This document shows, piece by piece, positions 25,001 through 28,000 of a stretch of DNA of 64,000 nucleotides; the first letter of the stretch is position 1, and each line of letters starts with the position of its first letter. Position numbers: made by a program. Origin of the DNA: Trypanosoma brucei (Eukaryota); assembly GCA_000002445.1 (NCBI GenBank), contig CH464491.1:4992001-5056000 (forward strand). The letters are read 5' to 3'.

Positions 25001-28000
25001 CGTGTTGCGGCTTATTTTTAAGCCTATAGGTTTCAGTAGTAAAATAGGGAGGAAAATCCCAGCGACGTAAAATTCGGGCATTAGCAGCGCAAAATTCATG
25101 CAGTGAACACTAATAATTTGTAATTTAAGATCTTATCCACAGCATTATATATCCATATCTAAAACATTAAAAATTTATGATTCAAAAAAGCTTTTCTCAC
25201 GGTAATTGATAGGTTTCTTTTCAGTTCGGAATAACTAATTATAGTTTGTGTTTCTCTTCTCCGTGACTGTTTATTGTTTATGTTTCGTATTATTATGTAC
25301 TATTTCTGGTTAGGGTTAGGGTTCGTCAATCGTGATTTTTCCTAATGTCTTTTAGGTTCTTTTTCGCTATGTACTGCTTGCTGCTGGGATTCAATACAAA
25401 TTTTATATGATTTTTGTCATTTAAAAGGTTTTATACTTTGGGTAATTAGCAAATATAGAATTAGTGATGTGCTGTTTGTAATTTTATGCAGCTTTTAAAC
25501 ACCACATGTTGGCTTATATACCTTATTTTTAGTAATTTCTCAGTGTTTATTTTCTTTTCTCAACACTAATTTAATGACAGTACTTGTTTTAAACTCATAT
25601 TGCTACAATTACATAGTTTCCCACACATGTTAGCTATTAATACTATTCTTCATGAGAAAACATCAGCATCACCTCAGACCTACACAATCCCTTTTTTCCT
25701 ATTCCTTGTAACGCTTCTTCACAATTAGTCATCAAGGTCCACCACCATAACTAAAAACCACAGTCGCTCCGATCACTTCCACGGTAGCGCATTATCATTT
25801 TTGTTAAAAATATGAAGTCCAATCTCCTTCAGTGTCACTTCCTTCTTTGAATCTTCATGTTGCCATTTTTTCTGTTATTTTATCTCGCGTTTACAGATTT
25901 CTTCCTTTACTGCATATCTTACTTTATATAACATAACGATTTCAGTCTTCCTGTAAAAAAACACTCTGTCGCTACTTCAATGTCCCCTTTATCATCTTCT
26001 TGTGAATGAAAAATGCCCATATTTATGTTTTAGTTTGAAACTGCCCGTATACCATATCCATTTATATTTCTATGTCTGCCTTTATTCATCTCCTCTAATA
26101 TTTTTGCCGTGGTCTCACTCACTCACTCAAAAACGTATTTCCATTTCACTCTCTAAAATTATTTTGTGTGCTTCTTCTTTACCTTTCAGTCGCTCTGAAT
26201 TCACAACTATTATTATAATATTTTTATATACACACTCACAACACTCTCTTATTATGATGAAAATTACTGTTTATAAGCCTAATTGCATGTAATATACAGG
26301 AAAATAATATACTAAAGTGGAATAGCGCCAATGTTCAGACCCTTTTACCGTGCATATTTACTCCCATAGGCCACAATAATACCAAAGTTTCAAAATATTC
26401 ACATAATTTGCACATATCAATCACAAAGTGTTAAAATATACAAAATTTAAGCAATTTTAGGAAACTCTCTAAAAATAGCAAATTTCATACATTTTAAAAG
26501 ACTGAAAAAAAGTCTTAACTATTTATAATAGTAAAACATACCAGAAAGAGGGGCCTTTTTAATGACAAAAGAATTGTTTCCTGTGGTGTTTGTTGTGGCT
26601 GGAGTTGTTGTATTTTTTGCAGCGTCTTCCTCGCATTTGTTTTCTCCATCATTATATTTGCAACCGTGTTTCTTGTTGCAATCATCTATGTTTGTTTCCT
26701 TTTCGCATATTGTTTCCTTCTCCTCGCCGCTGGTCGTGGTTATTTTTGCTTGATGGCGCTGAGCTCGATAAGCTTGCCCCTGAAAAAATGATAGGGCAGT
26801 TGCGAACTTAGTACCCTTGCTTAGAACCTCCATCGTCCCGGTGATAGTGGTGTCTGCAATTTTAACGGTTTTGTCTCCCTCCTTGAGCTTAGCGATGAAG
26901 TTTTTCTGTATCGCATCTGGTTCGGAGCCGTATTTTTTTTTCAGGGTCTATTCTGTTGCCTCGTCTGAAATCTCTGTTTCTTTAGTGGGCACTGTGTCGG
27001 TTAGTAGGGCCCCGGCGATGTATTTCATGTCGCGATCTCCTTTCAACTCCGCGATAGAGGCTGTCAAGACGGATGCTTTAGTCGTGATCTTGATTGCCCG
27101 CGCCTTGCATATCGTGTACCTGGTCGCCTCTGCCAATACTGTCATGTCGTCATCATTGGATGGGTTGTCGCCGCAGTTGGCGCCGCCAGGTCGGCCGCTT
27201 GCTATTGCCATTTCTTGTAGGTCCGTGTCTCCTGCGTTGCTGAACGAAAGTTCTGCCCAGACGCCACTGGCGGCCGACGCGGCTGGATTGCCGTCGTCGC
27301 CGCATTTGCCGTCTGTCGTCGCCTCACCCGTATCCGAGGCGACGTTTCCCTTTGCGTCTGCTGCTAATGTTAAAGCTCGCCTGCCTAGCATGGCGTCCTT
27401 TGTTAATTTTAGATGCGTCTCAGCAGATATTTGGCTTCCTGCCTCTTTCAGCGCGCCTTTGCTGCCGATTGATGCTTTGCATTTGTCTTTGGCGGCTGCT
27501 GTCGTCGCGATTTCTATCGTGCACCGCTCGGTACCTGCGCCGAATGTGTGTCTCCCCTGCGCGTAGCTTTTTTTGGTTCCGGGGAACGTCTGCTCTGGGT
27601 AACTGCTTTCGATCTGTAGCAGCTGGGCTGCTCTCTTCCGCAGCAGCCGAGCCACATCGAGCAGCTGTTTCTCGTTTTGTTGAATGCTCGCCGTAACAGC
27701 GTTTGATCTGGCTGCTGCTAGCGCCGCTAGCGCTGAAAAACCTACGGCCCTTTTTGGCTCAGTTGCGGCTGCTGCAGCCAGCGTCAGCTCGGCCCATTCG
27801 TCGTTTAGTGCATCTCTGCTTCTGACGGCGGAGGCCAGTTCACTTTCGAGGGATTCAGCTAGCAGCTTCGTGAATTCTGCTTCGCTACATCTGTCGTCGA
27901 CGGCCTGGGCAGCTGTCCCCGTGGGCTTCCCAGCGCCGCTGCTGCCTGCTAGCACTAAAAACGCTATCATGTACAGAGTTGCTTTCATATTACTTTATGC

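What the first reader, a model, noticed from the sequence alone, without database searches (positions are those of the whole stretch)
25305..25325. Interstitial (TTAGGG)2.5 tract in a VSG upstream spacer
GGTTAGGGTTAGGGTT lies between the 70-bp repeat at 26205 and the VSG at 23129-24700. It is a second, independent internal telomeric-repeat site in the same array. Such sites are potential recombination or fragile sites, and potential binding sites for telomere proteins (TRF or RAP1) at a silent locus.
Basis: seen in the sequence. Interest (0 to 1): 0.5.

Follow-up and report, generated by a model that had tools for sequence, protein, structure and literature searches.

The report
Short internal telomere-repeat scar beside VSG
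A perfect 16-base piece of telomere repeat really does sit upstream of a silent trypanosome surface-coat pseudogene, but it is unchanged in three diverged copies of that gene cassette and marks no rearrangement, so it looks like an old, passive repair scar rather than an active fragile or regulatory site.

Summary
GGTTAGGGTTAGGGTT, 2.67 TTAGGG units, lies at window 25308-25323 on the + strand. It is 608 bp upstream of the ATG of a VSG pseudogene (23129-24700, - strand) and about 880 bp downstream of that cassette's single 70-bp repeat. Base composition cannot explain it: about 1.5e-5 such tracts are expected per window.

It is not an assembly artefact. The same 16 bases occur at the homologous position in two independent T. 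equiperdum assemblies, inside spacers that are 93-95% identical to this one.

The tract has sharp edges, is non-coding and has the same length in all three copies. Its flanks align colinearly in all of them. The edges of the shared block fall on 70-bp repeats, not on the tract, so the "breakpoint or fragile site" idea gets no support.

It could hold at most one low-affinity TRF dimer. The neighbouring 70-bp repeat is a better documented RAP1 site.

My best reading is a passive short interstitial telomeric sequence carried in the co-transposed spacer of a VSG subfamily. It most likely began as a telomerase-primed repair scar. A 6-bp micro-duplication of a chance 10-mer cannot be excluded, because I found no repeat-less copy. 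The finding is ordinary and of low interest.

The parts
25308..25323 (+). Perfect interstitial telomeric tract GGTTAGGGTTAGGGTT (2.67 units). It reads AACCCTAACCCTAACC on the VSG sense strand.
   Evidence: Sharp edges with no degenerate repeats beside it. Identical in L001 9378-9393 and L002 6677-6692.
26205..26270 (-). Single 70-bp repeat copy that opens the cassette (core 26230-26244).
   Evidence: All 17 cores in the window are on the - strand.
25591..26204 (-). Part of the spacer next to the 70-bp repeat. Distant relatives of it lie downstream of the 70-bp repeats of other cassettes.
   Evidence: nhmmer with a three-copy profile hits L001 2208-2804 and window 21722-21341, 1806-1441 and 52558-52319.
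24701..25590 (-). Part of the spacer private to this VSG subfamily. It contains the tract, has no ORF across the tract and matches no RNA family.
   Evidence: It is 95-99% identical to L001 over 25837-24839.
23129..24700 (-). A-type VSG pseudogene: 523 codons with one in-frame stop at codon 203.
   Evidence: Pfam PF00913 and PF10659. Translation. Relatives at 72-95% identity.
23047..23062 (-). Conserved VSG 3'UTR 16-mer TGATATATTTTAACAC of this cassette.
21993..29231 (-). Two-cassette block colinear with T. b. equiperdum L001 5489-12702 (90.4% over 7265 nt). It is bounded on both sides by 70-bp repeats.
34607..34622 (-). Separate telomeric tract GTTAGGGTTAGGGTTA. It is in sense orientation, downstream of the 3'UTR of VSG 34983-36422, and belongs to a different class of site.
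34797..34807 (-). Separate 11-nt telomeric tract TTAGGGTTAGG in the same VSG 3' flank.

Best explanation
The tract is a short interstitial telomeric sequence carried as a passive passenger in the co-transposed spacer of one VSG cassette family, in a silent subtelomeric VSG array of Trypanosoma brucei.

**Shown.**
- It is an exact 16-bp TTAGGG-type run with sharp edges.
- It is non-coding.
- It already existed in the common ancestor of at least three cassette copies, whose spacers are now 93-95% identical.
- It has been copied unchanged with the cassette.
- It marks no rearrangement boundary.

**Inferred.**
- It arose once, as a scar of a double-strand break upstream of the VSG.
- Telomerase extended the 3' end ...TTTCTGG by about 14 nt, roughly two template rounds.
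- The end was then rejoined to ...CGTCAATCG.
- Since then it has done nothing beyond offering one weak site for a TRF dimer.

I give about 0.85 that it is a passive relic whatever its origin. I give about 0.4 that the origin was telomerase rather than a micro-duplication. The overall confidence of 0.45 is my rounded judgement for the full statement, origin included.
For: - **Exact tract, far above compositional chance:**
- **No degenerate telomere-like repeats around it:**. This is typical of short ITSs and not of decayed telomere arrays.
- **Identical tract in two other assemblies:** L001 (GCA_003543875.1) and L002 (GCA_001457755.2), at the homologous position.
- **Three-way divergence:** the three spacers are pairwise 93.3-95.4% identical. 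The copies are therefore roughly equally distant lineages rather than one sequence seen three times.
- **Colinear flanks:** block edges lie at 70-bp repeats.
- **Motif over-representation:** two of the nine perfect hexamer runs of at least 16 nt carry the telomeric motif, out of my estimate of about 350 motif classes.
- **Nothing else encoded there:** no ORF, no RNA family.
- **Precedent:** short ITSs in mammals appear in one step at repaired breaks, with telomerase implicated, and are described as scars rather than fragile sites (PMC7215372).
Against: - **No repeat-less copy was found**. The defining test for one-step insertion could therefore not be run.
- **Generic hexamer micro-duplications are common in this window.** There are 9 runs of at least 16 nt against my estimate of about 0.1 expected. 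By my rough estimate that route alone could yield several telomere-type 16-mers per genome.
- **Rejoining is a problem.** Rejoining after telomerase action needs end joining. In T. brucei break repair is reported to be dominated by homologous recombination and microhomology-mediated joining, and non-homologous end joining has not been reported (abstracts of PMC2377438 and PMC3045614).
- **Invariance is not evidence of constraint or of neutrality.** About 7% of nearby columns vary, so 16 invariant columns have a probability of about 0.3.
Confidence: 0.45

Rival explanations
1. Micro-duplication origin. A chance 10-mer GGTTAGGGTT gained one 6-bp tandem duplication through replication slippage or 4-nt microhomology (GGTT). 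Telomerase played no part, and the tract has been a neutral passenger ever since.
For: - The window has 9 perfect period-6 runs of at least 16 nt, of various motifs. I estimate about 0.1 expected from composition, so this process operates here.
- Chance telomeric 10-mers are expected at about 0.18 per window, or about 140 per 50 Mb.
- A chance-level 10-mer was seen inside a VSG coding region in L003.
- The sharp edges and the 16 = 10 + 6 length fit this route.
Against: - Only about 1 in 350 hexamer classes (my estimate) is telomeric.
- Four of the nine runs are TTA/ATT-type repeats close to 70-bp repeats, leaving about 3 generic events per window.
- A repeat of 1.67 units is a poor slippage substrate.
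Confidence: 0.33
2. Relic of a former chromosome end. The array once broke just upstream of this VSG, and the centromere-side end was healed by de novo telomere addition. Distal sequence was recaptured later, leaving only 2.67 repeats at the junction.
For: - In L001 the cassette lies at 145-165 kb of a 2.1-Mb scaffold, with the VSG on the + strand. The tract's G-strand therefore runs 5'->3' towards the nearer end, which is the polarity expected of a healed end.
- De novo telomere seeding on T2AG3-like sequence is documented in T. brucei (PMC1807955; PMC3610638).
Against: - Polarity is a 50:50 observation and rests on one scaffold.
- VSGs in L003 (T. b. gambiense), at a similar distance from the end of a chromosome of similar size, point the other way.
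- There is no degenerate repeat remnant.
- The sequence distal to the tract belongs to the same cassette (spacer plus 70-bp repeat) in all three copies. No junction is visible.
Confidence: 0.1
3. Functional site. The tract recruits TRF or RAP1 to nucleate silencing inside the array. Alternatively it acts as a fragile or recombination site, or as a pre-placed telomere seed.
For: - The tract matches 14 of the 15 core bases of the double-repeat oligo TTAGGGTTAGGGTTA, which the TbTRF Myb domain binds in vitro (PMC4227783).
- T2AG3-like tracts can seed telomeres.
- RAP1 shows sparse subtelomeric peaks (PMC10686619).
- The tract is invariant in three copies.
Against: - The Myb affinity is weak, with a Kd of about 20 uM, and only one dimer fits.
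- The documented seed is 106 bp and experimental seeds are 16-33 repeats.
- One 70-bp repeat binds RAP1 better than (TTAGGG)10, and one sits about 880 bp away.
- TRF ChIP-seq enrichment is reported at chromosome ends (PMC12975129).
- No breakpoint, indel or length change occurs at the tract.
- Only three G-runs are present, so no intramolecular G-quadruplex can form (read from the sequence).
- The invariance is compatible with neutrality.
Confidence: 0.07
4. Sequencing or assembly artefact, such as a chimeric join through telomeric reads.
For: None was found. The only assembly gap in the window (16181-16280) is 9 kb away.
Against: The same tract sits in the same flanks in two independent assemblies of other isolates.
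Confidence: 0.01

Closest known systems
Short interstitial telomeric sequences (short ITSs) of primates, rodents and horse (PMC7215372 and the earlier work it cites)
   Same: A few exact TTAGGG units at a non-terminal site. Sharp edges, unique flanks and stable inheritance. They are interpreted as scars of repaired breaks and not as fragile sites themselves.
   Different: Only 2.67 units. It lies in a protozoan VSG array, in an organism where non-homologous end joining has not been reported. The defining comparison with an ITS-less locus could not be made, so one-step insertion is not shown.
T2AG3-like tract downstream of telomeric VSG genes, such as the 106-bp tract 3' of VSG221 (PMC1807955; PMC3610638)
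   Same: Telomere-like sequence internal to the terminal repeats and associated with a VSG. This class explains the other sites in the window (34607-34622, 34797-34807) and L001 950-1056.
   Different: The tract studied here is upstream of its VSG, in antisense orientation, perfect rather than degenerate, and six times shorter. It fails the positional and orientation features of that class.
Co-transposed region of VSG cassettes (the sequence between the 70-bp repeat and the VSG that is copied with the gene)
   Same: The tract lies inside this segment and is conserved with it across cassette copies.
   Different: Telomeric hexamers are not a general feature of this region. No other cassette in the window, L001, L002 or L003 has one there.
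Fusion-type ITSs (head-to-head telomere arrays left by chromosome fusion)
   Same: Telomeric repeats away from a chromosome end.
   Different: Single orientation, with no inverted partner and no long degenerate array.

Membership tests
Short interstitial telomeric sequence (short ITS) | Exact head-to-tail telomeric hexamers at a non-terminal position | tested here: met
   16/16 match to the periodic TTAGGG pattern at 25308-25323, with VSG cassettes on both sides.
Short interstitial telomeric sequence (short ITS) | Few units, sharp boundaries, no degenerate subtelomere-type repeats beside it | tested here: met
   A scan with an 18-mer allowing up to 4 mismatches finds only windows that overlap the tract itself.
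Short interstitial telomeric sequence (short ITS) | An ITS-less orthologous or paralogous locus shows one-step insertion into otherwise continuous sequence | tested here: inconclusive
   All three recoverable copies carry the tract. nhmmer found no relative of the 890-nt private spacer. Pattern scans of the metagenome and prokaryote collections found nothing.
Short interstitial telomeric sequence (short ITS) | Bases in register with the repeat at the 3' end of the ancestral break | not testable with these tools
   This needs the empty site. The left flank ends in ...CTGG, but the boundary between flank and insertion cannot be defined.
Telomeric-VSG 3'-flank T2AG3-like tract | Located downstream of the VSG 3'UTR 16-mer | tested here: not met
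   The tract is 608 bp upstream of the ATG at 24700. The cassette's 16-mer is at 23047-23062, and the upstream VSG's 16-mer at 26428-26443 lies beyond the 70-bp repeat.
Telomeric-VSG 3'-flank T2AG3-like tract | G-rich strand is the VSG sense strand | tested here: not met
   The tract reads CCCTAA on the VSG sense strand. The sites at 34607 and 34797 and L001 1046 do meet this feature.
Fusion-type ITS | Head-to-head (TTAGGG)n-(CCCTAA)n arrangement | tested here: not met
   The only opposite-strand tracts are 9.3 kb away, in another cassette.
In vivo TRF/RAP1-bound site | Sequence able to bind a TRF Myb domain | tested here: met
   The tract contains TTAGGGTTAGGGTT, 14 of the 15 core bases of the oligo bound by TbTRF Myb at a Kd of about 20 uM (PMC4227783).
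In vivo TRF/RAP1-bound site | ChIP enrichment at the locus | not testable with these tools
Recombination or fragile site | Rearrangement junctions, indels or length variation at the site among copies | tested here: not met
   Same length in three copies, colinear flanks, nearest indel 92 nt away, and block edges at 70-bp repeats.

The most novel reading that the evidence does not exclude
Short, polarity-defined telomeric tracts inside silent VSG arrays are functional. In this reading, 25308-25323 is kept as a weak TRF/RAP1 nucleation point, or as a pre-positioned telomere seed and anti-checkpoint. A subtelomere broken distal to it could then be healed just upstream of a VSG instead of being degraded at several kb per generation.
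Probability: 0.06. Interest if true: 0.55.

Novelty: new member of a known kind. Interest (0 to 1): 0.17.

Why it matters
Very little rides on this one tract. If it is a telomerase scar, it records that a break once occurred and was repaired in the co-transposed region upstream of an archival VSG. A genome-wide census of such scars could then map where silent arrays break naturally.

The practical gain here is negative knowledge. This site should not be treated as a breakpoint, a fragile site or a telomere-protein platform without ChIP or population evidence. The other telomeric tracts in the window belong to a different and already described class, the 3' flanks of formerly telomeric VSGs.

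Tried and rejected
- **Exact-protein look-ups** for four window ORFs (24092-24700, 23129-24049, 29594-30973, 34983-36422) found nothing on record. P0001 and P0003 also have no contigs.
- **The third protein search**, with the upstream VSG, gave a 100% match to "VSG 1125.1445" but no new contigs.
- **Pattern scans** for filled or empty versions of the site in the metagenome and prokaryote collections returned zero hits, as expected for trypanosome DNA.
- **Idea: the spacer is an inverted VSG 3' flank.** Rejected. All 11 copies of the 3'UTR 16-mer are on the - strand, and none lies on the + strand near the tract.
- **Idea: the spacer is related to the 34600-34850 flank.** The only similarity is 60-70% identity over AT-rich stretches that are not colinear. 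I judged it compositional.
- **Shared 14-mer CAGCGCAAAATTCA** at 25085 and 34420 is not above chance.
- **Hidden RNA or coding function.** There is no Rfam match at gathering level; the only hit in the permissive scan of the spacer is a 14-bit match to a family whose gathering score is 105. No ORF crosses the tract.
- **Selection on the tract.** 16 invariant columns have a probability of about 0.3 given about 7% variable columns, so nothing can be claimed.
- **Literature.** Full-text searches for interstitial or internal telomeric repeats in T. brucei VSG arrays returned no paper that describes such sites.

Full report
**1. What is there**

The + strand reads tactatttctGGTTAGGGTTAGGGTTcgtcaatcg. 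The perfect telomeric run spans 25308-25323, which is 16 nt or 2.67 TTAGGG units. The window is a one-directional array of Trypanosoma brucei VSG cassettes:
- All 17 cores of the 70-bp repeat are on the - strand.
- All 11 copies of the VSG 3'UTR 16-mer are on the - strand.

The cassette in question, read along the - strand, has this anatomy:
- One 70-bp repeat at about 26270-26205.
- A 1.5-kb spacer.
- An A-type VSG at 24700-23129, with Pfam hits PF00913 and PF10659. It has 523 codons and one in-frame stop at codon 203.
- The 3'UTR 16-mer at 23062-23047.

The tract lies 608 bp upstream of the ATG and about 880 bp downstream of the 70-bp repeat. It reads CCCTAA on the VSG sense strand.

**2. 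Is it more than chance?**

Against base composition, yes:
- The 12-mer with up to 1 mismatch occurs 3 times against 0.14 expected.
- The 10-mer occurs 3 times against 0.02 expected.
- An order-3 Markov model expects 1.5e-5 telomeric runs of at least 16 nt per window, and about 0.01 per 50 Mb.

The window also holds nine perfect period-6 runs of at least 16 nt, with various motifs. I estimate that composition predicts about 0.1. Small hexamer duplications therefore really do happen here. Two of the nine runs carry the telomeric motif.

**3. Is it an artefact?**

No. The N-terminal ORF of the VSG finds a T. b. equiperdum protein. Its contig is GCA_003543875.1, CM010678.1:145051-165584, held here as L001.
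- L001 is colinear with window 29231-21993 over 7265 nt at 90.4% identity.
- This is a two-cassette block, and its edges are 70-bp repeats.
- The tract is present base for base at L001 9378-9393, in a context that is 96% identical.

A second assembly, GCA_001457755.2 (L002), was reached through another family member. From memory I believe it is T. equiperdum OVI. It carries the tract at 6677-6692.

The three spacers are pairwise 93.3-95.4% identical. They are three lineages, not one sequence seen three times. The tract is therefore older than their divergence and has kept its length.

**4. Anatomy and neighbourhood**

- The tract has sharp edges. A scan for degenerate telomere-like 18-mers finds only windows that overlap the tract.
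- No ORF crosses it, and no Rfam family matches.
- The spacer has two parts. The roughly 600 nt next to the 70-bp repeat have distant relatives behind the 70-bp repeats of other cassettes. The 890 nt next to the VSG, which hold the tract, are private to this VSG subfamily.
- Identity to L001 is 95-99% across 25837-24839, but falls to 67-84% in patches of the VSG coding sequence.
- About 7% of nearby columns vary, so 16 invariant columns have a probability of about 0.3. The invariance says nothing about selection.
- Only three G-runs are present, so no intramolecular G-quadruplex can form (read from the sequence).

**5. The other telomeric sites are a different kind**

The tracts at 34607-34622 and 34797-34807 are on the - strand. 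They lie 100-300 nt downstream of the 3'UTR 16-mer of VSG 34983-36422, in sense orientation and embedded in AT-rich sequence.

L001 950-1056 has a degenerate G-rich T2AG3-like tract in the same place behind another VSG. This matches the T2AG3-like tract described downstream of the telomeric VSG221 (PMC1807955). That tract serves as a seed for de novo telomere addition (also PMC3610638).

These sites are most simply relics of VSG 3' flanks that were once telomeric. The tract under study fails that class on three counts: position, orientation and degeneracy.

**6.

*Breakpoint or fragile site.*
- Among the three copies there is no length change, and no junction or indel within 92 nt of the tract.
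- Flanks stay colinear for at least about 500 bp on the VSG side and about 880 bp on the other.
- The rearrangements that do exist lie elsewhere. Block edges sit at 70-bp repeats. A 145-nt tandem duplication in L002 lies near the VSG start.

*TRF binding.*
- The TbTRF Myb domain binds an oligo with the core TTAGGGTTAGGGTTA at a Kd of about 20 uM, with two Myb domains per oligo (PMC4227783).
- The tract could therefore hold one weakly bound dimer.
- By the human TRF1 consensus YTAGGGTTR, which I quote from memory, it has one full site and one 8/9 site.

*RAP1 binding.*
- Recombinant RAP1 binds a single 70-bp repeat at 10 nM, against 24 nM for (TTAGGG)10.
- Its sparse subtelomeric ChIP peaks were attributed to residual expression-site sequence (PMC10686619).
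- The 70-bp repeat about 880 bp away is the better candidate site.

*Published ChIP.* TRF ChIP-seq is reported as enriched at chromosome ends (PMC12975129). I could not inspect reads at this locus.

**7. Origin**

Three routes remain open.

(a) *A telomerase-primed repair scar.* This is the short-ITS mechanism proposed for mammals, where ITSs appear in one step at repaired breaks and are scars rather than fragile sites (PMC7215372).

(b) *A 6-bp tandem duplication of a chance 10-mer.*

(c) *A healed former chromosome end that later regained distal sequence.* In L001 the tract's G-strand points towards the nearer scaffold end, which fits this route. That is a coin-flip observation, however, and VSGs in L003 (T. 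b. gambiense) point the other way.

The decisive evidence would be a copy of the spacer without the tract, and I could not find one. I commit to (a) at about 0.4, with (b) at about 0.33 and (c) at about 0.1.

Whatever the origin, I put the probability that the tract is now a passive passenger at about 0.85.

**8. Comparison with known kinds, novelty and verdict**

It behaves like a short interstitial telomeric sequence and meets the descriptive features of that class. The insertion criterion is untested. It is not a member of the VSG 3'-flank T2AG3-like class, nor of the fusion-type ITS class.

Full-text searches found no paper describing such sites in T. brucei arrays. Even so, a 16-bp neutral relic is a new member of a known kind, not a new kind.

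Verdict:
- The artefact explanation is excluded.
- The fragile-site interpretation is not supported.
- The binding-site interpretation is only weakly plausible.
- Interest is low, at 0.17.

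Noticed in passing
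window 34607-34622 (-), 34797-34807 (-); also 34531-34545 (+): Two TTAGGG tracts lie in sense orientation 100-300 nt downstream of the 3'UTR 16-mer (34909-34924) of VSG 34983-36422, within AT-rich sequence. A TTTAGGG-like GGTTTAGGGTTTA lies on the opposite strand. The arrangement resembles the T2AG3-like tract behind telomeric VSG221, which suggests this cassette's 3' flank came from a telomeric copy.
   Followed up: partly
L001 950-1056 (+): A degenerate G-rich T2AG3-like tract (GGTAGGAGGTGGGTAGGGAGG...GGTTAGGGTTA) starts about 110 nt after a VSG 3'UTR 16-mer in the T. b. equiperdum array. It is a second example of the 3'-flank class.
   Followed up: partly
window 33840-34300 (-): A VSG C-terminal/3'-end fragment with its own 16-mer (33842-33857) sits between the telomere-like islands and the next 70-bp repeats (33563-33664). 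This gives a composite VSG 3' region.
   Followed up: no
window 26948-27988 (-): This 346-aa ORF is 100% identical over its full length to 'Variant surface glycoprotein 1125.1445'. The window probably comes from strain EATRO1125 or a very close relative. The ORF has no Pfam hit at E<=0.01.
   Followed up: partly
window 23129-24700 (-): The VSG is disabled by a single in-frame stop at codon 203. Its C-terminal 306 aa are 95% identical to an intact 523-aa VSG (UniProt S5G6I5). At least eight family members at 72-95% identity are on record.
   Followed up: partly
window 21993-29231 vs L001 5489-12702: The two-cassette block shows mosaic divergence. Spacers are 95-99% identical, while patches of VSG coding sequence drop to 67-84%. 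This is consistent with segmental conversion or faster change in coding parts.
   Followed up: partly
L002 7051-7350 and 9959-11483: The L002 copy has a tandem duplication of about 145 nt just upstream of the VSG start. It also has a second tandem VSG copy that lacks its own 70-bp repeat and spacer.
   Followed up: no
window 26200-25591; 21722-21341; 1806-1441; 52558-52319; L001 2208-2804: A weakly conserved module of about 400-600 nt lies immediately downstream of the 70-bp repeats and is shared by several otherwise unrelated cassettes (nhmmer E from 1.6e-15 to 8e-5).
   Followed up: no
window 16181-16280: A run of 100 N marks an assembly gap, just upstream of the VSG ORF 14875-16173.
   Followed up: no
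window 6534-6590, 21964-21983, 39067-39088, 38524-38540, 50755-50771, 5736-5751: Seven further perfect hexamer runs of 16-25 nt. Four are TTA/ATT-type runs close to 70-bp repeats. Their number is far above my rough estimate from base composition.
   Followed up: partly
L003 10031-10040 (-): A 10-nt CTAACCCTAA lies inside the signal-peptide coding part of a T. b. gambiense VSG. This is a chance-level telomeric 10-mer of the kind that could seed a micro-duplication.
   Followed up: no
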